64,000 nt of DNA from Hypanus sabinus. Its lineage: Eukaryota. The notes under the pieces are model-generated. The model did not search any database. It was not told where the DNA came from and saw only the letters and a program-made list of their open reading frames with translations. The DNA is taken from assembly GCF_030144855.1 (NCBI RefSeq), contig NC_082710.1, positions 161,758,001 to 161,822,000 of the forward strand. The letters run 5' to 3'. The position numbers and the translations under genes were made by a program. The first letter of the stretch is position 1. Every line of letters begins with the position of its first letter. Positions 10,201 through 36,700 of the stretch are shown here, piece by piece.

Positions 10201-10490
10201 GGTTCCACATGGTAGGATTATTCAGAAAGACAGAAGGCATGGGATCCAGGGAAGTTTGGCCAGGTGAATTCAGAATTGGCTTGCCTGCAGAAAGCGGAGG
10301 GATGTGGCGGAGGGAGTACATTCAGATTGGTGAGTTGTAACTAGTGGTGTCCCACAAGGATTGGTACTGAGACCCCTACTTTTTGTGATTTTTATTAACG
10401 ACCTGGATGCAGGTTTAGAAGGGTGAGTTGGCAAGTTTGCAGATGACACAAAGGTTGGTGGTGTTGTGGATAGCGTAGAGGATAAGGGAG
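7240..10490 (+). mobile_element. near full-length decayed CR1 LINE (ORF1 zinc finger plus SGNH esterase; ORF2 EN plus RT)
   Basis: ORF1 'ECSVCCMWE..YTCKRC' and 'PGARVRD..VHVGTND'; ORF2 EN, 'NYRPVSFTSVVGKLLE', 'SQHGF', FADD codons near 10440; many stops and frameshifts. Confidence 0.9.
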
Positions 10491-12560
10491 GGAGATGAAT
10501 GGAAGACAGTTTTTAACAACCACCTCGGTCATTTTGAATACCTAGTGATGCCTTTTGTCCTGACCAATGCTCCGGCGGTGTTCCAGGCTCTGGGCAATGA
10601 CATCCTTAGGGACTTTATTACCCAATTTGTTTTTGTTTATCTGGATGATATCCTAATCTTCTCCCATAATCTCCAGGAGCACACCCAACATGTCCGCCAG
10701 TTTCTTCAGAGGCTTTTGGAGAACAAGCTATTTGTGTGAGTTCTATGCCCATTCAGTCAGTTTTCTGGGATACATCATTGAGAGCGGGCAGCTGAGGGCG
10801 GATCCCAAAAAGGTCCGCCCTCTGTGGTGGAGGCAGATACAATAGCGAAGTTTAAAAGACGGTGGCAGAGTTGCTCGACGTTTAAACAACTTCAGCGATT
10901 TCTGGGATTCGCCAATTTCTACTGTTGCTTCATTAGGGACTACGGCCGGGTGGCAGCGCCCCTTACTCAGCTCACCTTTCCTGCGACCCCATTCCACTGG
11001 ACCCCCGAAGTGTACTCAGTCTTCTCGGAGCTGAAGAGGTATTTCATTTCCTCCCCCATCCTGACCCATCTTGCCAGTTCATTGGGGAAGTAGACACCTT
11101 TGACTCTGAGGTGGGAGCGGTCCTCTCTCAAAGCTCCGTCCTGGACCAAAAGCTCCATTCCTGCGCCCTCTCTCGCCATCTATCCCCCCGTTTAATGGAA
11201 CTATGACATAGGGAACTGGGAGTTGCTGGCTGTCAACTCGCCTTGGAGGAGTAGAGGCACTGGCTGGAGGGAGCAGAACACCCATTCATTGTCTGGACAG
11301 ACCATAAGAATCTGGCATACATCCAGACAGCTAAACGTCTTAACTCCCTCCAAGCTCGTCGTGCACTGTTTTTTGGCCGCTTTAATTTCTCCCTCACCTA
11401 CCGTCCTGGTTCTAAGAATGTGAAGCTAGATGCTCTCTCTCATCAGTACGTCTCCGAGGAGGACCCTTCCAATCCTGATAGCATCCTTCCACCATCCTGT
11501 GTTGTGGATGCCCTCACCTGGGAGATCAAAGAGACCCAACAGACTCAACCTGACCCAGGCGATGGACCCCCAGTCGCCTCTTCGTGCCTGACTCTGTCCA
11601 TTCTCCGGTTCTCCAATGAGGACATACTTCCCGGTTTGCCTGCCATCCTGGAATCCGTCAAACCCTGTCCCTTTTGAAGCAACATTTCTGGTGGCCCACC
11701 ATAGATGCTGACACTCGCTCCTTCATCTCTGCCTGTACTGTGTGTGCCCGTGGAAAAGCCTCCCATCGGCCACCTGCTGGGCTGCTTCATCTCCTACCTG
11801 TCCCTGGCCACCCTTGATCCCACATTGCTCCGGATTTCGTCACTGAACTACCCCCTTCACATGGTAACACAGCTGTACTCACTGTGGTGGACCGTTTCTC
11901 CAAAGCCGTGCACTTCGTAGCCCTTCCCAAACTCTCTACAGCCCGTGAAACAGCTGATCTCCTTGTCTAACATGTCTTCTGCCTTCATGGAATTCCCTCT
12001 GACATCATTTCTGAACATCATTTCTCAAGTCTGGAGATGCTTTTGTCAAGCCCTTGGAGACTCAATAAGTCTGTCTTCCGGCGTCCATCCACAGACCAAT
12101 GGCCAAACAGAACGAGCAAACCAGGGTTTGGAAGCAGCACTGCGCTGCATCTCCGCCAGCAACCTGTCATCCTGGAGCACCCATCTTACTTGGGTAGAGT
12201 ACGTCCACAAATCCATGGTCAGCACCATGACCGGAATGTCTCCCTTTAAATGCTCCTTCGGTTACCAATCCTCTCTGTTTCCTGCACGTGAAGATGACAT
12301 CGCTGTGCCTTCAGTTCAGGCCCATCTCCGCCGGTGCCGCAAGGTCTGGAAGGATACACGCGTGGGCCTGCTCCGCTCAGCTGACTGCAAGTGGAGGATC
12401 GCTGATTGCCATCGAATTCCTGCACCCAACTATTGACCTGGTCAGAAGGTTTGGCTCTCTCCAAAAGAAATCCCCCTACAAGAAACTCGCCCCTCATTAC
12501 CTCAGACCATTTGAAATTGAGAGCATCATCAACCCCTCAGTGGTCAGACTCAAACTGCCC
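10491..12560 (+). mobile_element. pol: Ty3/gypsy (chromovirus-like) pol remnant: RT, RNase H, integrase
   Basis: '[23 protein letters not shown]', 'LQRFLGFANFY', '[16 protein letters not shown]', 'GQKVWLS..PFEI'. Confidence 0.9.
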
Positions 12561-13410: not shown

Positions 13411-14167
13411 GTTCAATATTAGACATGAGCACACGATTCAGATTCTGCAGGAAACCATTGACCATCTGCTCACTATCAACCAACTCTCCATCTTGATACA
13501 GCAATGCACCGGTATACTTGCTCCCTCAGAGCCCCAGATTCTGGTGTCCAAATGCTTCGACAGTGCATCTTACATTTTGAGCTCCATCCATCTCTGTTTG
13601 TTGCAGACTTGCCTTTGTCATTTCTCTCTTGACTGGGCAAGCTCTATCCTGGCCTTTACCAAACTGGAACAATAAAACCCTAATTTGCAATATGAAAATC
13701 TTACTGCTGAGTTGTGCCAATTTTCTGATTATCTGGCAAGTTGAAGGGGTGGGGGGACAGCAGATCAGATATTTTGCCGGTGTCAAGTATCATGCTCCAT
13801 GCTGCATTATTCTGCAGAATTCAGGATCCTCGCACAAGAGTGCAGTGGAATGAGGAAGTGTTGCTTGTCCATTACCGACGCAGCCTCTTAGAGTACTGGA
13901 ATGATGAGCTGTCTACCTGGGAAATGCTCACCAACCTCAAAAGCATCATCACTCTGACCCTCCAAATTGACAAATGACACTCCAAGTCATAAGCCAGAAA
14001 CCCAGTTCCATTCACATAACAATTTCAGGCTGCAGGGCCCTCTTATAAGGGTTTACCCCTTAGTAATAATGATCAGTTAGCCACAGAGAGAATCAGTGGT
14101 TCTGACAAATACCTTTATTGGCTCATTTCGCAAGAACATGAATTTATACAACTGAATATCTGTGTGC

Positions 14168-14391
14168 TGTGGTAGACCATGTATATCTGTCTGGACATAC
14201 CTGGACACGCCCCTCTGCTGACTGCTCCTGTGGCTCCTCCCACAGACCCCTGAATAAAGGTGATTGTGTCACTGCACCTCCCACTGTCCAGGGCGGACAT
14301 CCAGCATGGATGTGGATCCATTTTGTTGTTAATAAAAGCCTTTCAGTATTTACTCTACTTCCAGTCTTTTGGAGTAATTGGTAGTGCATCA
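14168..14391 (+). mobile_element. solo LTR with 5-bp target-site duplication
   Basis: TG...CA termini, internal AATAAA, flanked by TGTGC at 14163-14167 and 14392-14396. Confidence 0.8.
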
Positions 14392-14447
14392 TGTGCATAT
14401 CTACTGAATTTCCCTGAGCCTCCACGACGGTCAACGAAAAGAGAAGC

Positions 14448-15540
14448 TGTTACCTGGGAAAGGAGTCTATGCTGGCCAGGTGTTCCTTATGTTCCTGTTT
14501 TAATCTCCACATGTTCATGGGGTACTGCAAAACTGTGATGGTTGGTCTCTGGAGAGTTGCTGCTGCTTTGCAGTCAAAGGTCCTTCCACTGGTCTGGTGC
14601 ATCAAAGGGCTCCTTTCTTTACAGTTCTGTCAGGCTTGTATCCTGCACAGATCACACAATTCTTGACATAGTGCTCCACATTGTCCTTCATCTTTGGCCA
14701 TCAGCACACCTCCTTTATCTTTTCCAGGGTACTTTTGGCCCCTCAGTGTCCCCATAGATCATGGTAGCAGTGGATCATCTGGTTGCTTCCTCCCTCCAGA
14801 AGCACAAACTTTTCTCCATGTAGGACTACTCCATCTTTAACTCCCTTGTACTCTTTATATATTTTTGATCCTGCCTCATCTATTAATTTTAAATTTCTTT
14901 ATCTACCTTCTGGTCCTTGGTTAAATCCATAACCTTAACCTGTTGTTCCTTCTGCTTTCCGATCCTCTCAATCTGTGGCTTCCATTCCTGCCCAATTAAA
15001 GCTCAGCTTTCCTATTCCCCTCAGGGATAATTTAGAGTGGGCTTTCACCTTTGCTCCATATTCTTTTCCTTTTGCCTCTTCAAATATATACCACAATAAA
15101 TCAGCAGACAAGAGGGGCTTCGTGGGGTACTGCAAAACTGTGATGGATGGTCTCTGGAGAGTTGCTGCTGCCTTGCAGTCAAAGGTCCTAACACCTGGGT
15201 CACCTTATTGGCTCTGGTCCAGGGCTACAAACAGCATTGTTCTGGGGCCTTTGCCCTCAGCTGCTTGCCTATTGTTCTTTTCAATTCCAGCTCAAACCAG
15301 TGAAACCAGGTGACCCAGACACCAAGCCTCCAAATGCTCCTTCTGTAAACTGGTCACTTTATTCAACAAATAGCTACTTCTCTGAGAATGGTCTCGGGTT
15401 TAGCAGGTCATTTGCAGAAAGTTCCTTGTGTCCACATTCGATTGTTCTAACTGAATTCACAAAATGGGAGCTGCTAAGACAGTCTCACAAAATGGCTGCC
15501 TCCATTCCCATTCACCGATTGTCATTCTTTCTCGCCAACA
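14448..15540 (-). mobile_element. 3' LTR (~490 bp net) interrupted by a 538-bp pol copy
   Basis: Begins TGTTGG directly after a PPT; CCAAT box near 15205; ATTAAA near 14500; plausible end GGTAACA at 14448. The left boundary is less certain. Confidence 0.6.
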
Positions 15541-15556
15541 GCTCCCTCCCCTTGTT
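15541..15556 (-). other. polypurine tract
   Basis: Reverse complement AACAAGGGGAGGGAGC, directly followed by TGT of the LTR and directly downstream of env. Confidence 0.75.
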
Positions 15557-15566
15557 TCGAAGATAT

Positions 15567-17890
15567 TCATCTTAGGATCATTAACCTCCTCTCCTTATGT
15601 TGACCGCCATGGAACCTCAGTAGGAATGCAATACTTACCTTATATAAATAATGCTGATATTTACTTACTGAATTCACACACTTTATACTGACAATTGTCT
15701 CTGCTGCTTTAGGAAAGTATCCTCCACTAATTTCTTGGATTATTTCTGCCTTCCATATTTTAAATTGATTTACATCAAGCAATACACTTCTCAGGTTACA
15801 TAAAATTAGTATTACAGCTGCATTCAATATATTTCTTACCCATGGAAGTATTTGAACATTTGTTCCCCAATTCCAAAACTTACTCCAAAAGCCTGGGTCA
15901 CTCAATATTTCATTTACTTTACCAGCATGTGTTTTAATTATATCAGTGTATTTAGTCCAATGAAGGATTATCTCCCTTGCTTCCCCCATGACATGTGTCC
16001 AGTCCGCAGTCAAGTGAGGAATTGGTGGCAACTCAGTAGCAACATAGTTCCACAAATATTGATCCATGGCAGTGTGTTGCATCTTCAGATTCTCCTCCAT
16101 TACTGTGTCTCCTGCTCGTGGAGGCAAAGTTCATTCTCAAATGTCAAATCAAAAGTCACTTTCCATTGTTGACATTGTGACTTTCCAAACAGCATTGTTT
16201 CCATTCCTTGGTATAATTTCTGACTGGTGTTGCTATATAATATGTCTGCCCCACCAATGCATATTGTCGGAAGGACTGATTATTCATAGGCAAAATAGAT
16301 AACAAACAACTTTCATAGGTACTGAGACCACAATCTGTAGGTTTCTGTTTTGTTATTTCTTCTGGGCAAGTCCAATGATCTCGCCTTGTTGACATCCTGA
16401 GAAATCTATCCTTTCCCAGTATCATTCATAACAACAGCATGTGTTGGTGGGTTACTGAAGGACATCCAAGTGTTCTGATGATATTTGTCCACATTACAAA
16501 CCCCTTTCAAAGAATAGCTTAATTTGTTTCAATATTGGGGAATGTGGAGCACTACATAGATTATAAAACTTTCTTTTACCATCATCACAGAAACCCAGTA
16601 CTCTATTGGTTATTGCAAAGCTTCTAATGTGGCACAATGACATTTTTCCTTTGATCCATTCTGTTATCTGCTCGACTGATACCCAATTTGTCCCTTGATG
16701 TGCATCAAGTTATAGTAAATTAGTACCAATCATGGCTAGTAACAAACTTCCATGTCTAGTATAAAACTCAATCTTTTGCCTTTCCCTAGAAGTGAGGTCT
16801 ATGCGGTCAGTAATCAGGCTTATTTTATCTTGAATGGGATTCAGAAATTTAACTGCGTCCAGAGTTACCTGGGATACATCTCGACCAATTTTGATTAGTT
16901 TGCACCTGATCTTGATAATCTTCTCCAGTAATATCCCACAATTTTTGCTGAAGGTTCTATATGTGAGTTTTTGATTCTGCTATATCTCGGCTGTTGGCCA
17001 CTGCTACCACTGATGCATAACGTGCTCCCACAAGTACCAATAGTTCTCTCTTCCTTCTATTTTTGACTTGTTTAAACTTGTTTCTGCTTCATTGTCTCCC
17101 AGGATGGTGAGCAAATAATTCTTTCATTGTAGGTGAGCACCCGTCAGGCACCATTATTTCAGTTAGATTAAAAATTGCCTGCATGTGTTGGCATCCCAGA
17201 AGTAAAGTGACACATTCTCCTGTATTCTCTAACACTAATCCTACCCCTCTGTATTACAGTGGGTCTCACTACATTTAGGCTCTGGTGTAGTTTCAGTTAC
17301 TTATGGGTATTGGGTAGTGATTTTCCTCATGGTTTTGAAAACCCAGGAAGGGCCTGGGCCCTGACAGAAATTCTTCCCCCATGTACTATACCCTCCTGTG
17401 GACAGTTTACAACCTTCCAGAAATGCTTGGTGAGTCCACTCCGATCAATATACCTCTTGTCTTGATCACTGCTGTAATCAATATTCACATGAGTGTGATC
17501 CCACAGAACTGTACTCTTACCATGGGCATCATTACCTGAAGGCTGCTCAATAATTGGACCTACGTACCGACTTATGATCACTCCCGCTGGGATACTGGAT
17601 AATGTTATTTCAAAGAAGTGTACCTTTGGACCTTCTGGAATACCTAAGTTTGTCCACGCATGTCAAGCCATCTACCCCAGTATAAGACAAATTTGAGTCC
17701 TCTATTTCTCCTTTGTTAGCCTGCATTGCCAGTATCATTAGAGAAAAATTGTTTTTGATCACCCAGTGTTCTGCAAGCAGTGGCATCACCGTTAACACAT
17801 TTGTCAATAGTAATAGCCATGGGGCAAGATCGACTATGACCCCAGTCATGCTTAATTCTATTGCAACAAAATACATTACTCTCTGCATGT
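15567..17890 (-). pseudogene. env: env: class I fusion glycoprotein remnant, F-like
   Basis: Signal-like 'WLLLLTNVLTVMPLLA'; 'GVGLVLENTG..VPDGC'; furin RRKR at 17047-17058; fusion-peptide-like 'ELLVLVGARYASVVAVANS'; heptad; Cys-rich 'WTCPEE..DCGL..SCL'; 'FWSKFWNWG' then TM-like 'ILNAAVILIL'. Multiple stops and frameshifts. Confidence 0.75.
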
Positions 17891-18199
17891 TGAATTAAAC
17901 CTATAACACAAGGGTAATTTCTGCTCTTATTTCCAGTTTAAATCTTTAATTATTTTACATCCATATTTTTGATTTGCTTTCATAGACCATTTAATCCAGG
18001 TAAGCTCCCAATTGTTTTAGAATTCAAGGCATCCTTTCTACATCATCCAATTTCATTACAGCCAGGAGAGACAAGCATTGGCATTTTTCTTTAACTTTGT
18101 TTTTTTTTGAGAAAACTCCCCTGCTTCTCAGGGATGAGGGAACTGAAAATCTTCCCCTGATTAGGCCTGTCCCCACCTTCTTGGAACAGTTGTTCCATC

Positions 18200-19290
18200 C
18201 TTGTCTCCCAAATCAGGGCCATCATGTACATCAATTGTTATGTGCCAATTTCACCTGCTTGATAAGGTCCCACGCAACTTTATCTGGAGCAGTCAGTACT
18301 TTGTACACTGATAGACTTGCTTTGTCTATAATTTCATGCAACCCCAAGACTTAAAATAAGGTGGGTTGGTGTATTTGAATCATCATCTTTGTCCTGGACT
18401 TAATTCTATGGGACTGACTTTTGAGTCAAAGTGGGCTTTACTCTACAGCTTCTTCTTACTTATTTGATGAGCTGACAAGTAGTTGGCTTCATTCACTGTC
18501 TCTACCACTGTTGTACACACTTTTCTGACACAATCCCATCAATGTTGGATTTTGACAAATCCAATCCTACCAACTCATCCATTCCTCTCATGTCCCTTCT
18601 CATCATGAGTTTACAGGGGATGTAACCTTTTAAAGATGCCACTGTATTCATTAATATTAAGAGTGGAAAGGCAAAACTACCTACTTTGTTTCACCATTTT
18701 GGCATTCGTATTTTTTAGTGTTCAATTCATTTCCCTATTTCCCCAATTCCACAAGACTGTGGCTTATTGAGTATATGAAATTTCTGCTTGATCCCTAAAA
18801 GTTCCATGTCATCCTGCATTACCTGGGCTGTAAAATGTGTCCCTTGATCAAATTGTATACTCCAGGGTAATCACCAGTGAGTGAATACTCTTTCCAATAA
18901 GATGTTTGCAGTGGCCTTTGCTGTGTTTGTCTGAGCTGGGGAAGACCCACCCACTTGGTAAAGGTATCTATTTCAACCAGAATTATTGTACCCTTCTGGG
19001 GTGGAGGGAGGGGTGGGGTAAGAGACCAACATAATCCAACAGCAAATGAGATCGTGGCCCTTCCACTGGTCTGATGCATCAGGGGATCCTTTCTTTACAG
19101 TTCTGTCAGGATTGTGTCGTGCACAGATCACGCAATTCTTGACATAGTGCTCCACGTTGTCCTTCATCTTTGGCCATCAGCACACCTCCTTTATCTTTTC
19201 CAGGGTACTTTTGGCCCCTCAGTGTCCCCATAGATCATGGTAGCAGTGGATCATCTGGTTGCTTCCTCCCTCCAGAAGCACAAACTTTTC
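18200..19290 (-). pseudogene. pol: integrase remnant
   Basis: HHCC 'YHDLWGH*..WWPKM..YVKNCVIC'; 'ILVEIDTFTKW'; 'DQGTHF'; C-terminal 'EIIDKASLSVYKV'. Confidence 0.85.
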
Positions 19291-19443
19291 TCCATGTAGG
19301 ACTACTCCATCTTTAACTCCCTTGTACCCTTTATATATTTTTGATCCTGCCTCATCTATTAATTTTAAATTTCTTTATCTACCTTCTGGTCCTTGGTTAA
19401 ATCCATAACCTTAACCTGTTGTTCCTTCTGCTTTCCGATCCTC

Positions 19444-19902
19444 TCAATCTGTGGCTTCCATTCCTGCCCAATTAAAGCTCAGCTTTTCTATTCCCCTCAG
19501 GAATAACTTAGACTGGGCTTTCACCTTTGACTCGATATTCTGTTCAAATATATACCACAATAAATCAACAAACAAGAGGGGCTTCCTGTCAGCTGAAACA
19601 AACCCTTTGGCTTCCCACAGAGACAAATGTTCTGTAAGGCTATTAAAAACATACAGTCCATCAGTGTGTGTTACTGATCTGGGTGAAAAACATTCTGTGT
19701 GGCGTACCACATCTGCTACAGCTGCCAATTTTGCAGCCCATGCGCTCATGCCGGGTAACTTTAAAGCTATGCTGTACATTTCTAAGCCATCCACGTCCTC
19801 TACATATATCCCACACCCAGTTCTCCTCTCTCCATCCTGTACTGATGAGGGGCCATCTATAAAAATTTTAAAGTATGTTTTTTTTACACTTTGTGTCTTC
19901 AT
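19444..19902 (-). pseudogene. pol: second (retrovirus-type) RNase H
   Basis: 'KIFIDGPSS..GCGIYV..SAWAAKLAAV..HTDGLYVFNSL..LWEAKGF..KP..KVKAQSK'; the catalytic Glu is mutated to Lys. Confidence 0.85.
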
Positions 19903-19989
19903 TCTCAGTCATTAGTTTAACTGATCTGCTTCCACCCTCTCCTCTTTGTTTTGATACAAGTGGACCATCAGGATTATTTGCTATCATAA

Positions 19990-20160
19990 CCTGACACTCA
20001 TGTTCATTCCCTTGGTACACCAGGTTATCGGCTAACGTAGAGGTGATGTTTACTCTCCTTACACTATTATTTCTTGCTTGCCACAGCAATGCCCATCTAG
20101 TAATTCTGTTTTAGCTTACTGAACCACCTTTAATACTTCCAACTAACGGTAATTGTATGG
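19990..20160 (-). pseudogene. pol: C-terminus of first (Ty3-type/tether) RNase H
   Basis: 'GSIKGGSVS..RITRWALLWQ..STLADNLVYQGNEHEC'. Confidence 0.65.
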
Positions 20161-20161
20161 G

Positions 20162-20625
20162 CAAACACAAAGAAATCTGCAGATGCTGGAAATGCAAGTA
20201 ACACACACAAAATGCTGGTGGAACGCAGCAGGCCAGGCAGCATCTATAGGAAGAAGCACTGTCGATGTGTAAGATGATGAGAGGCATTGATCACGTGGAT
20301 AGTCAGAGGCTTTTTCCCGGAGTTGAAATGGTTGCCACAAGAGGACACAGGTTTAAGGTGCTGGGGTGTAGGTACAGAGGAGATGTTTAGGGGTAACTTT
20401 TTTACCCAGAGAGCGGTGAGTGCATGGAACGGGCTGCCAGCTACGGTGGTGTAGGTGGATACGATAGGGTCTTTTAAGAGACCTTTGGATATGTACATGG
20501 AGCTTAGAAAAATAGAGGGCTATAGGTAAGCCTAGTAATTTCTAAGGTAGGGACATGTTCGACATAACTTTGTGGGCCGAAGGGCCTGTATTGTGCTGTA
20601 AGTTTTCTATGTTTTTATGTTTCTA
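20162..20625. mobile_element. PLE tail (minus, 20162-20268) joined to a CR1 3' end (plus, 20269-20625), replacing the RT core of the provirus
   Basis: The PLE tail matches the reverse complement of 62055-62145; the CR1 3' UTR ends in ttttctatgtttttatgtttcta. Confidence 0.75.
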
Positions 20626-20639
20626 AGCGCTCGTGTTTT

Positions 20640-21000
20640 GAGAACCATTTTAACCCTTCCCCTTGAGGCTGGTGAAATATAGATGGGGATCTATGGAACA
20701 CCATGTGTTATGGCAGTCTGTACATACTGGTGTCCCTGAAAGGTAAATGTAAACTTGTGTTGACCCTCTCTTTCTAGTGTGATAGATCAAAATCCATTAT
20801 TTATGTCTAAAACTGTGAACCATTGTGCTCTTTCATTCTGTTTAACCACTATTTCCAGATTAGTTGCTACATTTAGGGCTGTTAATGGAGTTACTTTATT
20901 TAGTTCTCAATAGTCTAATGTCAATCTCCAAATACAATCTGGTTTCCTTACTGGTTAAATGGGTAAGTTATTAGTGGAGGCTGGTGGCATCATTTCAGTA
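20640..21000 (-). pseudogene. pol: reverse transcriptase N-terminal half
   Basis: 'PI*PVRKPDCIWRLTLDY*ELNKVTP', 'WFTVLDINNGF*SI', 'KFTFTFQG', 'SPSIFHQ'; cut just before the expected YxDD. Confidence 0.85.
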
Positions 21001-21479
21001 CACATTGTTGTATCAAACTTCATATTACCTTTCCTACATCTGGACCTTGTGTGGACACACTGCCAGCCATCTTTCCACAGTCATGCCTGTGCCATGCAAA
21101 TGTCCATTAGTTGAGTACAGTGATTTTCTGTACCTTGTGATCTCCTCTGGTTTTATCCAAGTTTCACCCATTGTGCATATTCCATTCTGATATTCTCCTA
21201 CTGGGATCTGTACGTGGTGTATGTTATTGATGCCAGTTGGCATCTGTCAAATTGTACAATCAACTAGGTCAAAATAAGGCCCCTCCTTGGCCATGTAATA
21301 TATATATACTCTATGTAATATATATGTAATATATATATACCCCAATATATACTCTTGCTACCTGGGTAATTCCACTAACATTATTCAATGTTCCCATGCT
21401 GCGTTTCCTATTTTCTAATTGACAATGGTACACTCGCTGTGAATCCACTTCAGCTAATTTTCACTTGTATCTTATGATT

Positions 21480-21590
21480 TGTGTTATTTACAGTTGATGG
21501 TGATTTGGGATTGTCCAGTGTCCCATAAAAAAGGTAACAGGGTGGCCTTTGACCCTACCACTCACTAGAGGTCTTCCAGTTTCATTCCAC
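21480..21590 (-). pseudogene. pol: aspartic protease remnant
   Basis: 'WNETGRPLVSGRVKGHPVTF/LWDTGQSQITI' with a 1-nt frameshift in a T run. Confidence 0.75.
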
Positions 21591-22836
21591 TTGAATCACA
21601 CACCCATGTTCATGTCGTTGAAGCTCCAGGTGCAGTACCCCGGATGGTGCTCTTTCCACCATATTATTTTGTGGGCTTTTCCCTTCCGGGGCAAACCACC
21701 TTGCTCTGCTCTCTCTCTTTATTTCTCCGTCTTGACCAAAGTTACAGCATTTAAATACTCCACCTTCAGTTCCCCCTGTTCCATTTCCTCTGCCCTTCCT
21801 TACCACTTGATCATGTGGCAGGAAGGCCATTGGGGTGTGTCACCTACCCTCATTTCTTGAGATAGTTCTATCTCCTTTTCCTACGCTCTATTCATTTTCC
21901 TCAGTACCCATTATGTGTAGGTTCAGTGGGCTCAAATATTTCCAATATTTGTTGAATATTTTGTCCAATATTGAATTTTTAGATTCATAATTACAGTGTG
22001 ACAGCAATATCCTTAACCATCTATTCGTGGGCTCTGCTCCTAAATGGTCTTGATCTAATTGCGTTCCATAGACCACATGGAACACCATCCATAAACAGGG
22101 TGCAAATACAGTGGATGTTCCCTGTCTTTAGATAACATTTAGCTAGATCGTCCACCGGGTCCCCTCTGTTAACACCCGTAACAACTCAGTCAAATTTGCA
22201 TTCCTTTAATTCCTCACTTGTTCCACTTGTTGCACGGTCTCCATTTGGTATTATACTGGTCGGCATTCCTCAGGATTCAGCACTTCATCATAGTCATAAC
22301 TGTATCCAGTCACTTCATCTGCTAAATGACCCCAATCTATGTCTGCATATTTACCTTCCTCCCCTCTTTCAGCTCCAAAAGCAGATATTATTCCTGTCTG
22401 TGCAGCAAGCTGGTCCTGCAGTTTTTGTATCTGCTTTAAACACATTGCATGATCCCCAGTGTTACTCTTCCTTTTACGTGCTGATTTCTGAATCACATTT
22501 ATTGCCATTTTTAAATCGCTACACTCTTTCCTTAACCCTTCCACTTCATTCTGAGCTCATTCAGCTGCATCTTCTTGTTAACTCCTTTCTGTAACCAGTT
22601 TCTCACAGTTCAACTGAAACAGGTTCATATGCATCAAGTCCATACTTCTCTGTTCCTGTAAATCAGTAACCTTTTCTTTCAGGGCTTCAACATTTGTTTT
22701 CCTCTTTTAATCTATTCCATTCTACTTTAATTTCTCACCAATATTCTAGTATTTCCTGTTGTAATCTACCTCACTCGGCTTCAGCTTTTTTCTGACATTC
22801 TGGATTTTCCTTTTCTGATGTGTGTAATTCTGATTT
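21582..22836 (-). pseudogene. gag: gag remnant (coiled coil plus degenerate zinc knuckle)
   Basis: Coiled-coil-like 'CLKQIQKLQDQL'; 'FKCCNFGQDGEIKRES', a decayed CX2CX4HX4C, directly upstream of PR. Confidence 0.65.
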
Positions 22837-24925
22837 CTCTTCTGCTTCTTCAGCTGTCCATTGATTTCAATGTTGACTGTGCTGAGATTTTAGTCTCAGA
22901 AGGCATGTTTATGGGCCACAGGACCAGCATTGGATCGACACTGTCTCCCATATCAGATGCATTTGTGATTTGACTGGTCTAGCACAGAATGTCTGTGTTC
23001 ATGACCTGCTTCATATTTCCTCTGCATTTTCTCCTCGATAGCTGGGATTGACTTCTTGACAATGCAGCACCAACTTCTTCTGTTCAAAGCATCTTTCTCC
23101 CAGGAGTTAACATTCATGTCAGTGTTCTTCATATGGTGCTTGAGCACATCTTTGTAGCGCAGCTTCTGACCACCATGCTTCCTCTTTCCTTCATGTAGCT
23201 CGCCATAGAAAACAGCTTTGGGTAAACGATCATCACTCATTCTTGTGACATGACCAGTCCAACGCAGTGATTCTGCACTGACTGTACCAGCACATTTGAG
23301 CACCTCCACATCTGTACCCTCTCTTGCCATTCGATGTGTGGTATTTGGTGTAAAAGCCTGTGTTGTGTCTTGGTCAATTTCTTGATACAATGTCATCATT
23401 TCAGTTGAATAAAGAAGAGATGGTAAAGCAGCTGTGTTATACACCTTGACCTTGGTTGCCATTTTAATGTTGTGGCGAGACCAAAGTCGCTGCTGCAAAG
23501 CACCAGATACTTTTGTTGCTGATTGAATTCTCCTCTCAACTTCCAGATCTGATGAGTTGGTGTTGGTCACAGCGCTTCCTAAGTATGTGAGTGAGTCAGA
23601 ACATTTCAGCGCTACCCCATTGACCGATATGACTGGTGGTTGGGTCTCACTGGGACTACACAGAGGAGGCTGGTACAGAAGTTCAGTTTTGCAGACATTG
23701 ACACATATGCCAAAAAGAGTGGCAGCAAACGAGAAGTGGTCTACAATTTCCTGAATCACATTAACATCAGTAGCAACCAGGGCTGAACTGCCTGCATACA
23801 GAAGCTCTCTGACACATCTCTCTCTTGATTAGGTTGAGGCTTTGAGTCTTGACAGGTTGAACAATTTTCCATCTGAGTGAATCCTGATGTACACATCTTT
23901 GTCCAAATTATGGTCCATTATATCCCAAACTGTAATAAAATATGGTGTGAACAAGGTTGGAGCAAGAACGCATCCCTGTTTTACCCTGGGGTTGATGGTG
24001 AAGGCTTCACTGACATCTCCTCTGATAGATACTTTGCCAGACATGTTCTCATGAAACAACTTGATCATCGTAACCAGCCTATATGGACAGCCATATGTTT
24101 TGAGCACTACCCAGAGTGTTTCTCTGTCCACCGTATCAAACGTTTCTGAGAAATCAGCAAAGATTTCCATCTGCAGTTTTTACTGGGGCCACTGTATTGC
24201 TTCTTGGACCATAGATAGCTTTTAGTCCTGAGAAGAGCCCATGGTAGTCATTCCTGTCTGACATTGCTTGCAGTTCTTCCGCTTTCTTATTCCACCAGTT
24301 GTTCTTCATAGCCATGATCTCCCTTTGAACTTTGGCTTTCACGGCCTTAAATGCTGCTTTGCTTCTTTCAGAGTTATTTTTCAAGTGATACATATAAAGC
24401 CTTTGATTCATCTCCAACAGTTCTTGAATTGAATCATTTTGTTCTTGAAACCAGTCAGGAGTTTTTCTCTTAGGGTGGCCGAGCACTGCACTTGCAGTTG
24501 AATGGATGGTTTTCTTGAGCTGCTTCCAGCATTCTTCAATATTTGTCATTGGCAAATTTGGTAAAGGCAAAAAGAACACTAATGGTGACCTTATGCTAAA
24601 CTTTTGCCCTCAGAGGGAATTGTGTGTTACCAACACTTTCTTTAGTCAATCCAAGAAGAACAACTTCGCCTGGGTGCACCCAAGGTCAAAGCATCTCAAT
24701 TTGCTTGACTACGTTGTGACTCACAGAGCAGATATGCCGGAGGTTCTATCTACAAAAGCAAGGCATGGAGCAGAGAGCTCATCTGATCATTACATGGTAC
24801 GATCACAGCTTAGACTTAAACTGCTGCTATCAAGGCAAAAAACACCCAGGGAAGAACCCAAGAAATTGGATGTCAATAAGTTGGCCAGTGAGGAAGATCA
24901 GAGGAGACTTGTCACAGCATTGGCG
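22837..24925 (-). mobile_element. RTE-clade LINE with inverted 5' segment
   Basis: Minus-strand ORF2 pieces (22953-24545: 'FADFSETFDTVDRE', 'GVKQGCVLAP', 'LRWTGHVTRMSDDRLPKAVFYGEL') and a GAA-rich tail; plus-strand EN piece ~24541-24925 ('VIGKFG..NG..FC', 'LDYVV', 'SDHY'). Confidence 0.85.
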
Positions 24926-24929
24926 TTAT

Positions 24930-25538
24930 CTCTCCATGAATTGTTCCCTATGGTTCCCTATGGAGGAGCAAATGGTGGAGATCCCATTGCTAGGATCCTG
25001 GTTCACCAATTGGAAGGCATAGAAGAGGACACAGATCGTGCATATCGCTACTATGCTAACCATATCAGTGCCCAGTCAGACTGCTCTGGCCTGCGGACTG
25101 TGTCTGGCTGCCCAACTGAGAACCACCCCTGTACACCATCTCCTGCAGCTCTCATCCCAGTTCGTTCATCGCTTACAGATTCCCATCGCATCTACCCAGT
25201 CACTTACTATCTCCAGCTGCCATGGTCCCTCAGACTACACCTACCTTCCACATGTCCTGCCACAAGCCCATTGTCCATGGACTACTCAATCTATCTGAGC
25301 CTGCACCTCCAGATCAAAGGATGGTGGAAAATGGTCCACTGGACAGGGTTTGCTGCTGGATAGATTTATGTCATCGTGGACAGGGTATGCAGAACCTGGT
25401 TAACTGGGAAGGGTACAGCCCAGAGGAAAGGTCTTGTGTTCTGTCCAGTTTCATCCTGGTTTCGATGCACACGGAGGAGTTCTATCAGACCCATTGGATT
25501 GTCCTGTGCTTTCAGGTGTCAGCCAGAACAGGGTATCC
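24930..25538 (+). mobile_element. pol: chromovirus Ty3/gypsy 3' end (integrase C-terminus plus chromodomain)
   Basis: 'YPVTYYLQLPWSLR', then 'QNLVNWEGYSPEERSCVLSSFIL' chromodomain. Confidence 0.8.
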
Positions 25539-29490: not shown

Positions 29491-30188
29491 GACAGGGTGA
29501 AGACAGGGTGAAGATAGCTCTGGCCCAGCCAAACTGAGAAATCTCGTTTGTGTGGCTGCTGTGTGATGTGTTGTCTGGTAACAAATCCATAAGGCAAAAT
29601 TTCAGAAAGTACACCATCTGAGCTTTATAATACTTAATGTGACTACACGGTTAGCAAAGAAAATAAAAAGGAAAAGGCTCCATTTTCATTTTTAGAATCT
29701 TTTTATTGGTACATAATCTTTTACAGCTGTAGAATGATACAAAACTTCAACAAATTATTATGTATACAATTAATAAAGCTGAAGAAAAAAGCTGATCGTA
29801 ATATATAAAAACAGAAAAAAAATTACATATAGGGAAAAAAGGGAAATAAAACCATCTAACTAGGAATAAAACCCACTAACTACAAAAAAAAGAGAAAACA
29901 AACCACCCCCCGGAGCAATATGTTTAACTATCATCTTTTTTTTTTTAATAATTTTTTATTGCATTTTTAAATGATTACAAAGTATGAAAAAACAATGTAT
30001 ATAACCCATACCCCCTCCCCTTAACCCCTCCCCCCTAACTGCCCTATAGAAAAAAAAAGAAAGAAAGAAAGAAAGAAAGAATGCCTGGTGGTTGGAAGAT
30101 CTCCACATGCTCCATGGAATTCGTAATAATTTTAATATGTATATTTATTTCTTTCCCCTAATAACCAATTGTTTCATCTTCAAAGCAT

Positions 30189-31820
30189 CTATATATTTAA
30201 TCCTGTCTTTTGTAAATAAGGGCTCCAAATTTTCAAAAATGTTTCATATTTATCTCTTAAATTATAAGTAATTTTTTCTAATGGAATACAACCATAGATT
30301 TCTTTCTTCCAAGAATCTATACTTAAATGTGTATCCGATTTCCAAGTAACTGCAAAAGCTTTTTTGGCTACTGCCAGTGCAATTTTTATAAATTCTTTCT
30401 GATACTTATTTAGTTTGAGTTTCGGTTTTATCCCTTCAATATCACCTAGTAAAAATAATATTGGATTATGAGGAAATTGTGTTCCTGTAATTTGTTCCAG
30501 TAAAAGTCTTAAATTTGTCCAAAAAGGTTGAATTTTAGAGCAAGACCATGTCGAATGTAAAAAAGTACCAGTTTCCTGGTTACATCGGAAACACTGATCC
30601 GATAAATTTGGATTAAATTTTTTTATTTTTTGTGGTGTAATATATAATTGATGTAGAAAATTATACTGCACTAATCTTAACCGAACATTTATTGTATTTG
30701 TCATACTGTCAAGACATAGTCTTGACCAATTTGTTTCTTCAATTTTGATATTCAAATCACTTTCCCATTTTTGTCTTGACTTATGGACTCCTTGCTTAAT
30801 TACCTGTCTTTGAATCAAATTATACATGCAAGATATAAATTTTTTGATATTTCCTTTTTGAATTAAAATTTCTATTTCATTAGATTTCGGCAATAACATT
30901 GTTTGACCTAGTTTTTCTCTTAAATAAGCCCTTAATTGAAAGTAACAAAATAAAGTGTTGTTTGATATTTTATATTTATTCTTTAATTGTTCAAATGACA
31001 TTAATATACCTCCTTCAAAACAATTCCCTATATATCTAATCCCATTTTGAATCCAATTATATAAAAGTTGGTTGTCCATTGTGAAAGGAATAAGTCTATT
31101 TTGAATTAAAGATCTCTTTGCTAATAAAGATTTTTTTATCTCATCATCAACATTTATCTTATTCCATAGATCAATCAAATGTTTTAATATAGGAGATTCT
31201 TTCTTTTCCCGTATCCATTTAGATTCCCATTTGTATATAAAATCTTCTGGTACATTTTCTCCTATTTTATCTAATTCTATTCTAATCCATGCCGGTTTAT
31301 CTTTCTCGAAAAAAGATGCAATAAATCTAAGTTGATTTGCTTTATAATAATTCTTAAAATTTGGAAGTTGTAATCCTCCTAGATCAAATTTCCATGTCAA
31401 TTTTTCCAACGATATTCTTGACATCTTACCTTTCCAGAGGAATTTCCTCACATATTTGTTTAACTCTTGAAAAAACTTCTGGGGTAATTGTATTGGTAAT
31501 GATTGAAATAAATATTGTAATCTAGGGAATATATTCATTTTTATAGTATTTACTCTACCTACTAATGTTATTGGTAATGCCATCCATTTTTCAAGATCTT
31601 CCTGAATTTTTTTCAAAAGTGGTAAGTAATTTAATTTGTATAAGTTTTTTATATCATTATCAACTCTTATACCTAAATATTTTATACCATTTGCTGGCCA
31701 TCTAAATTGAGTTATTAATCGACATTGATTATAATCTCCTTTAGTAAGAGGTAAAATTTCACTTTTATCCCAATTTATTTTATAACCCGATATTTTCCCA
31801 TATTCTTCTAGTCTATAAGA
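30189..31820 (-). CDS. L1 ORF2 C-terminal half (RT end plus Cys-rich domain), open
   Basis: Open from 'SYRLEEYGKISGYKIN' to the stop (543 codons); 'KYLGI', 'CFRCNQETGTFLHSTWSC'. Confidence 0.9.
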   Translation of the reverse strand, partial: SYRLEEYGKISGYKINWDKSEILPLTKGDYNQCRLITQFRWPANGIKYLGIRVDNDIKNLYKLNYLPLLKKIQEDLEKWMALPITLVGRVNTIKMNIFPRLQYLFQSLPIQLPQKFFQELNKYVRKFLWKGKMSRISLEKLTWKFDLGGLQLPNFKNYYKANQLRFIASFFEKDKPAWIRIELDKIGENVPEDFIYKWESKWIREKKESPILKHLIDLWNKINVDDEIKKSLLAKRSLIQNRLIPFTMDNQLLYNWIQNGIRYIGNCFEGGILMSFEQLKNKYKISNNTLFCYFQLRAYLREKLGQTMLLPKSNEIEILIQKGNIKKFISCMYNLIQRQVIKQGVHKSRQKWESDLNIKIEETNWSRLCLDSMTNTINVRLRLVQYNFLHQLYITPQKIKKFNPNLSDQCFRCNQETGTFLHSTWSCSKIQPFWTNLRLLLEQITGTQFPHNPILFLLGDIEGIKPKLKLNKYQKEFIKIALAVAKKAFAVTWKSDTHLSIDSWKKEIYGCIPLEKITYNLRDKYETFLKIWSPYLQKTGLNI

Positions 31821-31822
31821 TT

Positions 31823-33740
31823 TTGGTTAATAAAAATTTACCAATTAAAATACAAAATGTATTAATTGATTCGGCAGGAAGATATTTAATTATACATTGT
31901 CAAATTTTTTCAGAACTATGGACTCTTATGAATATTTATGCACCAAATGAAAATGATGTAAAATTTATACAGGAGGTCTTTTTGAATTTGGCTAATGCAC
32001 ATGATAAAATATTAATAGGTGGAGATTTTAATTTTTGTTTAGATCCAGTTTTAGATAGATCAACAAAGGCTATTACAAAATCAAAAGTAGCAAAATTAAC
32101 TCTATCATTGATGAAAGATCTAAATTTGATTGATATATGGAGAAGAATCAATCCAAAAGAAAGGGATTATTCATTTTATTCAAATAGACATAAAACATAT
32201 TCAAGGATAGATTTTTTCCTGTTATCAACAAATATTCAAGATAGAGTGAAAAACATGGAATATAAAGCAAGAATATTGTCTGATCACTCTCCTTTAATAA
32301 TGACGATGACAATGACAGATAAAGAGGAATCAATTTATAGATGGAGATTTAATTCAATTTTACTAAAACGTCAAGATTTTTGTGATTTTATGAAAAAACA
32401 GATTCAGTTCTTTTTAGATACAAATTTACATTCAGTTGATGATAAATTTATACTGTGGGAAGCAATGAAAGCATATTTGAGAGGTCAGATAATAAGTTAT
32501 ACTTCTAAAATTAAGAAGGAATATATGATAGAAATAGATCAATTGGAAAAAGAGATTATAAAATTAGAAAAAGAATCTCAAAGAAATATGACAGAAGAAA
32601 AACGAAGACAACTTATTAATAAGAAGTTAAAATATAATACACTCCAGACATATCGAACAGAAAAAGCAATTATGAGAACTAAACAGAGATATTATGAATT
32701 AGGTGAAAGATCACATAAAGTTCTTGCATGGCAGTTAAAAACAGATCAGATTTCTAAAACAATAAATGCAATTCGAACAAAAGTGAATGAAATTACTTAT
32801 AAACCTCTAGAAATTAATGAGGCTTTTAAGAATTTTTATTCTGAGTTGTATAAATCAGAATCAAAGAATGATGATGTTAAGATAGAAGAATTTTTATCAC
32901 AAATAACTCTTCCAAAATTAAATACAGAAGAACAGAAGGGATTAGGTATGTCTTTTACATTGAAAGAAGTTGAAGAAGCTTTGGGATCACTTCAAAGTAA
33001 TAAATCTCCAGGAGAAGATGGTTTTCCACCTGAATTTTATAAAAAGTTTAAAGATTTATTAATTCCTCCTTTTATGGAGTTAATATATCAGGCGGAAAGA
33101 ACGCATAAACTTCCAGAATCTTTTTCAACAGCTATTTTAATAGTATTGCCAAAAAAAGACAGAGACCTTTTAAAGCCAGCATCATATAGACCTATTTCTT
33201 TATTAAACACTGATTATAAAATAATAGCAAAAATCTTATCTAATAGATTATCTAAATGCTTACCAAAATTAGTGCATATGGATCAAACAGGATTTATCAA
33301 AAATAGACAATCGGCAGATAATGTAACTCGGTTATTTAGTATAATCCATTTAGCACAAAAGAGGGAGGAAATGAGTGTGGCGGTTGTTTTAGATGCAGAG
33401 AAAGCATTTGATAGATTGGAATGGGATTTTTTATTTAAGGTATTGGAAAAATATGGATTAGGAACATCATTTATAAAATGGATTAAAACCTTAAATACTA
33501 ATCCCAAAGCTAAAGTAGTGACAAATGGTCAAATTTCAACATCATTTCAGTTAACAAGATCAACTCGGCAAGGTTGCCCACTATCACCTGCTTTGTTTGT
33601 GTTGGCAATAGAACCACTAGCTGAATTAATCAGAATGGACCCAGATATTAAGGGTTTCAGAGTTAATCAGGAAGAAGACAAGATTAACTTATTTGCTGAT
33701 GATGTTCTAATTTATTTAACAGATCCATTACATTCACTAC
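31823..33740 (+). CDS. L1 ORF2 inverted half (EN plus RT), open
   Basis: 'LMNIYAPN', 'IGGDFN', 'YSRIDFF', 'SDHSP', 'YRPISLLNTDYKI', 'RQGCPLSP', 'LFADDV'. Confidence 0.92.
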
Positions 33741-36700
33741 GTTTAACTATCATCTAAGTATATAAAGAAAAAGAGTCATCAACCACCAATTCATATTTAA
33801 AAAAAATAAAATTGGAAGGAAACCATATAGAGTAATTCAAATTAAATGGTAATATTTGGCAAAAGAGCCCCATCTTCTCTCAAAATTGAATTGGGGTTCA
33901 GAAGTTCTACTTCTGATTTTTTTCCAAACTGAGATATAACATTACTTGAGAAAACCATTCAATTAATGTAGGGGAAGAGATACTTTCATTTTAATAGAAT
34001 AGCCCTTCTTGCCAGAAATGTAACAAAGGCATGTTGTAACATGTTGATCTGAAGATTAAATACTCTGAATATGATGCAGAACTATTCCAAATAGAACAGT
34101 CAGTCTATTATGTTGTAAATTAATGTTCAGAGCTTTAGAAATTGTAGAAAATAAAGATTTCCAAAACAATTTTAATGAAGAACATGACCAGAACATATGT
34201 GACAAAGTAGCTACTACAGTTTTACATCTATCACAGTAGTTGTCACTGTTATGAAATATTTTAGATAGTCTCTCCTTTGTTCAATAATAACAATGAACAA
34301 TTTTAAATTGAATTAAACAATAGTTGGCACATATAGAAGAAGAATTTACGTTTTTCAAAGTTCAAACCCAGTCTTTATTAACAAAAGTCATATTAAGTTC
34401 TCTCTCCCAATCTTGTTTAATCTTTAGTGATAGGTTCTCTTTTTGTAACAAAAGTAAATCATAAATTCTGCTAATGGAACCTTTCATGAAGGGATTCAAC
34501 ATCAAAATGGTTTCCAACAAATCAGATTCTTGTAAATACGGAAACTTAGGTAAATATTGTTGTAAAAAGTGTCCAACCTGAAAATATTGCAAAAAAATGT
34601 GTATGAGCAAGAGAATATTTGTTAATTAACTCTTCAAAAGTCATCAATTGACCATCACAAAATAAATCTGTAGAAGAACGGATCCCTTTATTTCTCCATA
34701 GGAGAAAAATGTGGTTGGTTATTGAAGGTTTAAATGAAAAGTTTTGATATAGAAGACTAGACAACTTAAATTGTTTAAACTTTTAAAAATTGCGAAACTG
34801 AACCCAAATCTGTAGGGATTGTTTAATAACCGGGTAAAGATTTAAATTTGGAATTTTAGAGAGCTGTAAAGGTAATGGAGCTCCTAATATTGAAGTTAAA
34901 TGAAAGTGTTTAACAGCTTTTAATTCCAAATCAACCCATCGTGGTTGTTGGCTCTTATCAAGCCAGTATAACCAAAAACATAATTGTCTAATATTTACAG
35001 CCCAATAATACAGTCTTAAATTAGGAAGTGTAAGTCCACCATCTTTTTTGGGTTTTTATAAGTGATACTTGTTAATGTTTGGTCTCTTATTGTTCCAAAT
35101 CAATAATTTTTTAGTTAAAAAGATGGGTATATTTTGGAAAATATATAAAAATCTAGGGAAAATCATCATTTTCAGCATGGATGCAACCTATTAAAGAAAG
35201 TGTAAGTGGATTCCATCTAGAAAATAATTGTTTCATCGAGTCTATTAAAGGAACTATATTAGCTTTATAAAGATCTTTATTTTTTTTAGTAATTTTAATA
35301 CTTAAATATCTAAATGTATTAACAATTCTAAAAGGAATATCATTATATATACTAACATGGACATTTAATGGAAACAACTCACTTTTATTCAAGTTCAGTT
35401 TATATCCTGAAAATTTACCAAAATCTTTAACTGCTTCCAAAAGATTAGGAATTGATTACTCAAGGTTCAAAATAAAAATCAAAAGATCATCTGTATAAAG
35501 AGAAATCGTATGTAGGGTTCCATTTATAGAAGCACCATGAATGTTTTTAACTTCACGTAATGTTATAGCTAAAGTCTCCAATACAAGATTAAATAATAAA
35601 GGGCTTAATGGACATCCCTGTCGTACACAAGTAAGTGAAAAAAGGACCTGTAATTATTAGTAATGACAGTGCCAATAGGGTTCTTATAAATCATTTGAAT
35701 CCATCTATTAAAGTTATTACCAAAACCAAGTTTTTTCTAATACTTTAAACAAATATGGCCACTCAACTCTATCAAGTGCCTTTTCTGCATCGAGAGAGAT
35801 AACACATTGAGGTTGCTTAGATAATGATGAATATATCATGTTCCTCAATCTCTGAGAATTAGAGAAAGATTAACAGCCTTCAATAAAGCCCATTTGATTC
35901 ATACAGATGATTTTAGTTAAAATATTTTTCAAGCGATTAGCCATTATTTTAGAAAGAATTTTTGCATCCACATTTAATAGCAAAATAGGTCTATATGATG
36001 AGCATTCAACAGGATCTTTATCTTTTTTAAGAATTAAGGAAATAGATGCTTCATAAAAAGAAGGTAAGTTTCCCTTCTCAAAGGATTCATTAAATATTTC
36101 CAAAAGATACGGAGAAAGTAATCTTGCAAATTTTTTGTAAAATCCCATTGAATAACCATCATGTCCAGGATTGCATTGATTGCATTGATAAAATAGCTTT
36201 CTGAATTTCATGCTCGGTAATTAGAGCATCAAGCATCTGTTGATCTTCCTCAGAAATTTGTGGGCATTTAATCTTATGTAAAGAAAAGCCTTCATTTTGG
36301 AGGAATCTGCAGGAAATTGAGATCTATAAAGATCAGAGTAAAAATCTTGAAAAGTATTATTAATATCATCATGGTTTCTTACTATATCTCCATTATTTTT
36401 ACATATCTTTAAAATTTGTATTTAGCTCTAGCTGCTCTTAATTGAGAAGCTAAGAGCTTATTATTTTTATCCCCAAAGATATAAAATTGACTTTTTAATT
36501 TAAGCAAATATCCTTCAATAGGATATGTTAGTAATAAATTATACTGTGATTGCAATTCTACTTTTCTTTTAAATGAAACAATATTTGGAGAGATTGCATT
36601 GATGTTATCTAATTAATTAATTTAGAGATTTTATTTAATTCCATTCTTGTTTCTTCAATTTAGCTATATATGATATAATTTGACCACGTAAATAAGCTTT

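What the first reader, a model, noticed from the sequence alone, without database searches (positions are those of the whole stretch)
14448..22836. Lokiretrovirus-like provirus (dual RNase H plus F-like Env) in a probable cartilaginous fish
Seen: minus-strand order gag zinc knuckle, PR (LWDTG), RT (WRLTLDY*ELNKVTP; WFTVLDINNGF), end of a Ty3-type RNase H (RITRWALL..LADNL), a second retrovirus-type RNase H (IFIDG..TDG..LWEAKGF), HHCC integrase, env, PPT and LTR. Established: a degenerate first RH plus a second RH is the layout of retroviruses and lokiretroviruses, not ordinary Ty3/gypsy, and lokiretrovirus Env resembles Mononegavirales F proteins. From recall, the original lokiretrovirus survey listed lampreys, ray-finned and lobe-finned fishes, amphibians and reptiles; I cannot confirm whether chondrichthyans were covered. 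Inference: this is a loki-type element that may extend the host range to batoids.
Basis: partly seen in the sequence, partly recalled or inferred. Interest (0 to 1): 0.85.

Follow-up and report, generated by a model that had tools for sequence, protein, structure and literature searches.

The report
Dead stingray retrovirus with fusion-type envelope
This is a long-dead retrovirus copy in a stingray genome whose polymerase groups with ordinary retroviruses (most likely the snakehead-fish retrovirus group), not with lokiretroviruses, although its envelope family is predicted to fold like the fusion protein of measles/RSV-type viruses, and one related envelope gene has stayed intact in two stingrays and may have been put to use by the host.

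Summary
Anatomy confirmed, loki reading not supported. The window holds a decayed minus-strand provirus (gag, PR, half of RT, tether end, second RNase H, integrase, env, PPT, interrupted 3' LTR; no 5' LTR). Host is Atlantic stingray, Hypanus sabinus. With three natural lokiretrovirus contigs as controls, an RT+tether tree puts stingray copies inside canonical retroviruses (99/97), beside frog and coelacanth ERVs, and rejects a ray+loki clade (AU p=0.004; RT alone p=0.185). No loki signature motif occurs in 18 ray stretches; the RT resembles the published SnRV row (hand count 56% versus 42%). SnRV-like ERVs are already known from elephant shark. The Env family is F-like (Foldseek E 3e-11, Z 11.7) and 22-24% identical to loki Env, so F-type Env is not a loki marker. 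Side result: a related 745-aa env is intact in two stingray genera beside a decayed pol while six of six paralogues are broken; co-option is possible, selection not shown. The scan noted the same pattern before in another genome (e1-7806250).

The parts
21618..22832 (-). gag remnant: coiled-coil N-part, capsid-like middle, degenerate CCHC knuckle at 21749-21732; stops and frameshifts
   Evidence: tblastn of natural sister-copy ORFs, blastn to copies, PF00098 E 1e-8 in sister L019
21136..21600 (-). aspartyl protease remnant (LWDTG 21528-21514)
   Evidence: PF13975/PF13650 in sister L023; bounds approximate
20624..20993 (-). N-half of reverse transcriptase; YxDD and thumb absent
   Evidence: RVT_1 E 4e-4; 71% identity to sister RT; no Y.DD in any minus frame
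20162..20625 (.). foreign repeat DNA replacing the RT C-half and most of the tether
   Evidence: matches interspersed repeats elsewhere in window and genome; gap against sister copies
19940..20161 (-). C-terminal end of the tether (degenerate Ty3-type RNase H)
   Evidence: 69% identity over 74 codons to sister tether, which hits PF17919 E 4e-24
19368..19902 (-). second RNase H
   Evidence: PF00075 E 1e-3 in window, E 6e-20 in sister L030
18409..19310 (-). integrase remnant (HHCC finger, core)
   Evidence: PF17921 E 5e-26; 13 stops in one HSP against sister ORF
15570..17950 (-). env remnant; F-like part 17250-15801 with RRKR cleavage site, fusion-peptide region, heptads and TM; start approximate
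   Evidence: five HSPs at 33-46% to the intact 745-aa relative, E 8e-81; relative's model matches F proteins
15541..15557 (-). polypurine tract
   Evidence: sequence directly; followed by TG at 15540
14060..15540 (-). 3' LTR, interrupted twice; AATAAA near 14119; end approximate
   Evidence: pieces match paired LTRs of sister copies L023 and L025
14579..15124 (-). copy of 19056-19588 (RNase H end and integrase finger) inserted in the LTR between 71-base direct repeats 15119-15189 and 14514-14584
   Evidence: 94% identity, K2P 0.037, shares the original's stops, short homologies at both junctions
22956..25360 (.). LINE-like DNA where the leader, primer site and 5' LTR would be
   Evidence: ORFs with LINE-like wording (family recalled, no Pfam hit); no LTR or primer-site match upstream

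Best explanation
The stretch is a decayed, 5'-truncated endogenous retrovirus of the stingray Hypanus sabinus whose polymerase groups with canonical retroviruses rather than lokiretroviruses, most likely in the snakehead-retrovirus (SnRV, class III/Huo) clade, and whose Env family is predicted to have the paramyxo/pneumovirus F fold. Inferred life cycle: tRNA-Asn-primed reverse transcription, RT with a tether and a second RNase H, HHCC integrase, and a spliced env cleaved at a basic site to expose a fusion peptide and drive membrane fusion as a class I trimer. After germ-line entry the family spread to at least dozens of loci, mostly as copies lacking the middle of env; this copy kept that part, then decayed, lost its 5' end and the RT core to insertions and deletions, and later had 546 bases of its own pol copied into its LTR, likely by template-switch repair.
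For: RT+tether tree, 35 rows, 397 columns: loki contigs 100/100, canonical retroviruses including ray copies 99/97; AU test rejects ray+loki, p=0.0044. RT tree with the window's own fragment: window groups with sister copies 100/99, on the canonical side 90/89. Identity of ray RT: 53-59% to four frog, coelacanth and unnamed ERV proteins, 29-38% to loki. Loki motifs 0 of 162 cells (18 stretches x 9 sites) against 8, 8 and 5 of 9 in loki contigs. By-eye count of L019 RT against rows printed: 77 of 138 identical to SnRV, 58 of 138 to Loki-Lch. Gag has a CCHC knuckle; none seen in the printed loki Gag ORFs; SnRV has one, spumaviruses do not (PMC2717909, passages). SnRV-like ERVs are reported from elephant shark and are the main coelacanth class. 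Env: model of intact relative matches RSV and hPIV3 F, E 3e-11, Z 11.7, rmsd 7.5, 324 aligned. Primer site complementary to a genomic tRNA-Asn in 5 of the sister loci scanned.
Against: No SnRV, ERV-L-proper or foamy sequence was available for the trees, so the SnRV label rests on a hand comparison and literature. The AU test on RT alone did not reject ray+loki (p=0.185). The integrase tree puts ray, frog, coelacanth and loki integrases in one weak group (SH-aLRT 83). Best PDB sequence hits of RT and RNase H are foamy-virus proteins (PDB has no named SnRV or loki hit). The ray+frog+coelacanth group has only 86/74 support. The 'SnRV-type' regular expressions were written with the ray copies in view, so their 80 hits are not independent. 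The Env model has mean pLDDT 59.6, pTM 0.42 and is of a relative, not the window copy.
Confidence: 0.82

Rival explanations
1. It is a divergent lokiretrovirus, the first in cartilaginous fishes.
For: Dual RNase H; F-like Env with detectable similarity to loki Env (22-24%); integrase near loki/NYNRIN-like integrases; this family is the best genome hit of a loki RT; RT-only AU test not significant.
Against: AU p=0.0044 on RT+tether; 0 loki motifs; best hit of loki RT in the genome only 36-43% identical (150 of 24,218 candidates scored); loki pattern 0 matches in the genome versus 78 for the family's pattern; Env tree separates loki Env by a long branch from all shark, ray and frog relatives; short PR-RT spacing and CCHC knuckle differ from the loki contigs.
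Confidence: 0.05
2. It is a foamy-like or an unnamed basal retrovirus lineage, neither SnRV-clade nor loki.
For: Foamy RT and RNase H are the top PDB sequence hits; foamy Env is also F-like; the closest SnRV-looking protein in the set (P0009) does not group with the ray copies.
Against: CCHC knuckle in Gag; no Foamy Env Pfam hit; RT row reads closer to SnRV than to the foamy rows printed (by eye, not counted).
Confidence: 0.11
3. It is an ordinary Ty3/gypsy retrotransposon that picked up an F-like gene.
For: Tether hits Ty3-type RNase H profiles; invertebrate Ty3 elements with F-like env exist.
Against: Retrovirus+loki branch separates it from all Ty3/gypsy rows at 100/100; complete second RNase H.
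Confidence: 0.02

Closest known systems
SnRV clade of Orthoretrovirinae (snakehead retrovirus; CmiERV lineage I of elephant shark; clade Huo)
   Same: RT and RNase H motifs match the published SnRV rows; CCHC knuckle and coiled-coil Gag; clade known from chondrichthyans.
   Different: F-type Env for this clade was not found described in my searches; SnRV's own Env could not be compared; no accessory ORFs recognised in the decayed copies; SnRV itself absent from my trees.
Lokiretroviruses (Wang and Han, PMC7947760)
   Same: gag-pol-env with tether plus second RNase H; Env homologous to Mononegavirales F and to loki Env; NYNRIN-like integrase.
   Different: RT+tether outside the loki clade; none of nine loki motifs; Env only 22-24% identical and about 170 residues longer; Gag knuckle present; much shorter region before RT.
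Foamy viruses and walleye epsilonretroviruses
   Same: Env with F-like fold (8rm0 Z 8.0; WEHV/WDSV and feline foamy Env).
   Different: Different Pol grouping for epsilon-like rows; foamy not in the tree; Gag knuckle.
Co-opted env genes (syncytins, percomORF, OVEX1 ORF3; partly recalled)
   Same: For the side locus only: intact env beside decayed pol, kept in two genera.
   Different: F-type rather than gamma-type Env; function, tissue and purifying selection not shown.

Membership tests
Lokiretrovirus | RT groups within the loki clade, sister to canonical retroviruses | tested here: not met
   (AU p=0.0044 on RT+tether; p=0.185 on RT alone)
Lokiretrovirus | RT and RNase H signature motifs of the published loki rows | tested here: not met
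   0 of 162 cells; controls 8, 8, 5 of 9 (two of these sites were the search pattern)
Lokiretrovirus | Tether plus second RNase H | tested here: met
   in sister copies; shared with all retroviruses
Lokiretrovirus | Env similar to Mononegavirales F with signal peptide, RXKR site, fusion peptide, coiled coil, TM | tested here: met
   fold and profile hit to F0 E 0.007 for the intact relative; no direct PF00523 hit
Lokiretrovirus | Integrase close to CGIN1/NYNRIN | tested here: inconclusive
   weak shared group with loki and proteins named NYNRIN-like; true CGIN1 not in the set
Lokiretrovirus | smc-like extra gene (some members) | not tested
   optional trait
SnRV clade (class III/Huo) | RT groups with SnRV inside Retroviridae | tested here: inconclusive
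   inside canonical retroviruses and 56% identical to the SnRV row by hand count, but SnRV itself not in the tree
SnRV clade (class III/Huo) | Gag with CCHC knuckle and coiled coil | tested here: met
   SnRV traits from PMC2717909 passages
SnRV clade (class III/Huo) | Env related to SnRV Env; accessory ORFs | not testable with these tools
   no SnRV Env sequence returned by any tool
Foamy viruses | Gag without zinc knuckle | tested here: not met
   PF00098 E 1e-8
Foamy viruses | RT groups with spumaviruses | not testable with these tools
   no foamy Pol sequence in the data folder; PDB hits only
Ty3/gypsy | RT within Metaviridae, single RNase H | tested here: not met

The most novel reading that the evidence does not exclude
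Shark and ray retroviruses of the canonical SnRV-like branch carry an F-type Env that is sequence-homologous to lokiretrovirus Env, pointing to an F-type Env in the common ancestor of both groups (or an old env exchange), and dasyatid stingrays have domesticated one such env as a spliced, sample-restricted host gene - an F-type counterpart of syncytins in a live-bearing cartilaginous fish.
Probability: 0.35. Interest if true: 0.72.

Novelty: new variant of a known kind. Interest (0 to 1): 0.45.

Why it matters
It removes a false range extension for lokiretroviruses and shows that 'dual RNase H plus F-like Env' does not identify them. The loki papers state that loki and canonical Env share no detectable similarity and prefer independent Env gains; a canonical-side family whose Env is detectably related to loki Env bears on that choice and gives a testable taxon set. 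The intact stingray env is a concrete candidate for a captured non-gamma envelope in cartilaginous fishes.

Tried and rejected
Homologue search with the window's RNase H ORF found nothing. No PDB sequence hit for the intact Env alone and no PF00523 hit for it or for 24 of 25 relatives scanned (the one hit is a loki Env). ESM Atlas gave only leads under its bars. IMG/VR gave one distant RT and no loki pattern. First trees lacked loki rows; I briefly took the frog and coelacanth 'NYNRIN-like' proteins for loki and dropped this after reading the published rows. RNase H tree is poorly resolved. Selection on the intact env: omega about 0.6 against 0.75 in broken paralogues, Fisher p=0.66, versus neutral p=0.14: purifying selection not shown. 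No listed run is on record as RNA; no splice joint was listed (table cut), and the lack of cover in run X9 is not evidence of silence. Absence of true loki in this genome is not proven (exact pattern only; 150 of 24,218 candidates scored). Literature searches for F-like Env in SnRV-clade ERVs or a captured env in rays found no such report; subscription journals, bioRxiv supplements and the cut part of the loki supplement (integrase data sets) were not seen. Rows left out of trees: 75 of 125, and further long-branch or redundant rows.
Full report
Observation. Pfam confirms an H2C2 integrase finger strongly and RT and RNase H weakly. The copy is heavily decayed (13 stops in one integrase HSP). 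Three points were missed. First, 20625-20162 is foreign repeat DNA; sister copies have about 660 bases of pol there, so the window copy has no YxDD and only the end of the tether. Second, the 3' LTR starts at 15540 after a purine tract and continues to about 14060, but holds a 546-base copy of 19056-19588 between 71-base direct repeats. The copy shares the stops of the original, differs by K2P 0.037 and has short homologies at both joints, so it arose after decay; template-switch repair is my inference. Third, no 5' LTR or primer site is in the window; LINE-like DNA starts at 22956.

Host and family. The window is G000:C19 of a 4.04-Gb assembly. A related ORF on C28 is letter for letter a protein labelled Hypanus sabinus, on a contig of the same length as C28, so the host is a batoid. 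The RNase H DNA has 356 candidates, 40 scored, the 39 others at 73-77% identity. Ten sister loci were read. Pfam gives CCHC knuckle, protease, RT, tether (PF17919/PF17917), second RNase H and integrase. Five loci gave LTR-pair distances of K2P 0.047-0.134; this is about 11-30 million years at the mammalian rate or 107-305 at the tenfold lower shark rate assumed in PMC4422223, so the age is old but open. Five sister loci have a primer site complementary to a genomic tRNA-Asn. Nine of ten lack the middle of env.

Is it loki? The survey (PMC7947760; main text parts 1-3 of 4, supplement parts 8, 70, 71, 77, 80 and word searches) found loki in 0 of 6 chondrichthyan genomes, so a true member would be new. 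The nearest Pol proteins are frog and coelacanth proteins named NYNRIN-like at about 50% identity. The published loki RT rows, including those of frog and coelacanth, differ from these and from the ray family at shared signature sites, while the SnRV row reads like the ray family. By hand, L019 RT is identical to SnRV at 77 of 138 positions and to Loki-Lch at 58 of 138. A pattern for the loki motif fetched three natural loki-type contigs, which carry 8, 8 and 5 of nine loki motifs and an Env hitting PF00523. In 18 ray stretches no loki motif occurs (0 of 162 cells; 80 SnRV-type, 82 neither). The RT tree recovers the published shape, loki sister to canonical retroviruses, with the window fragment among its sister copies on the canonical side (90/89); the AU test on these 211 columns does not reject ray+loki (p=0.185). 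With RT+tether the canonical branch is 99/97 and ray+loki is rejected (p=0.0044). Against this: the integrase tree loosely joins ray, frog, coelacanth and loki (83), foamy proteins are the best PDB hits, and neither SnRV nor foamy sequences were available for the trees. A loki RT finds nothing above 43% identity among the 150 scored genome hits, and the exact loki pattern has 0 matches against 78 for the family's own. SnRV-like ERVs are known from elephant shark (PMC4422223, part 1 of 2), are the main coelacanth class (PMC4977317, passages) and clade Huo spans all major vertebrate lines (PMC6001957, passages).

Env. The window's env pieces match the intact 745-aa relative at 33-46% (E 8e-81). 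That protein has 36 relatives at E<=0.001 among 1.84 billion representatives; of 19 looked up, 16 are from sharks and rays, two from frogs and one is an unnamed protein 66% identical to loki Env. Its model (pLDDT 59.6; residues 19-217 unreliable) matches RSV and parainfluenza F, and also walleye epsilonretrovirus and foamy Env models; the foamy-F link is published (PMC11468914, title and start of abstract seen). Identity to loki Env is 22-24%, and the Env tree sets loki apart by a long branch. So the Env works like an F-type class I fusogen by inference from fold and motifs, but F-type Env does not define loki. The Odin paper (PMC9040795, passages) argues for independent Env gains because no similarity was detected; this family weakens that premise. 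Whether the link is ancestral or an exchange is untested.

Side locus. The intact env lies beside a decayed, deleted pol remnant, has a short upstream exon, and is 96% identical to a full-length protein of Hemitrygon akajei. It is one of seven paralogues at 96-97% DNA identity; all six others are broken. A 2,875-base contig of a run guessed to be RNA, from a related species, covers most of the ORF with 77 differences and no gaps. Codon counts do not show purifying selection. I put capture by the host at about even odds; it is outside the window and not the same subfamily as the window copy.

Earlier notes. The scan reported the same re-classification in another genome (e1-7806250) and an Ig-like Env front domain (e1-7806943); these are AI notes seen after my reading was formed and are not counted as support. 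Other papers seen as passages only: PMC2717909, PMC9967133, PMC12193657, 10.1101/2021.11.23.469661, 10.1101/2023.10.26.564294.

Verdict. A real but dead ERV, most likely SnRV-clade, with an F-type Env; not a lokiretrovirus. Interest 0.45, carried by the Env homology and the candidate captured env rather than by the window copy.

Noticed in passing
L011:6210-8432 (G000:C28, about 118.004-118.012 Mb): Intact 745-aa F-like env (XP_059838750.1), 29 differences from a Hemitrygon akajei protein; short first exon 5.4 kb upstream; decayed, deleted pol remnant directly upstream; one of seven segmental paralogues, the other six all with frameshifts, four also with stops. A contig of a run guessed to be RNA covers most of the ORF without gaps.
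   Followed up: partly
L019, L022-L030: Nine of ten sister copies lack the middle of env (window 17630-16614) that the window copy keeps; the tenth keeps part. Suggests spread of env-deleted copies.
   Followed up: partly
window 10400-12450 (+): Separate decayed Ty3/gypsy element (RT, single RNase H, H2C2 integrase).
   Followed up: partly
window 30000-38000: AT-rich block (28% GC) with a 669-aa endonuclease-RT ORF on + and a 545-aa LINE-type ORF on -, back to back; likely an L1-like element with an inversion.
   Followed up: no
G000, many contigs: A young, abundant LTR family with open frames of about 1,960-2,000 codons, 32% identical to loki RT.
   Followed up: no
L029:2367-8595: A family copy carrying a large inverted duplication of pol-env DNA.
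   Followed up: no
G000:C25 11.2-13.5 Mb, C37, small contigs: Family copies multiplied in tandem or segmental arrays with near-identical scores.
   Followed up: no
L040-L042: Lokiretrovirus-type elements inside metagenome records, presumably fish host DNA; used as controls.
   Followed up: partly
P0130, P0134, P0128: Long, apparently whole F-like Env relatives annotated in bamboo shark (739 aa), a frog (723 aa) and a smooth-hound (673 aa); further capture candidates or young proviruses.
   Followed up: no
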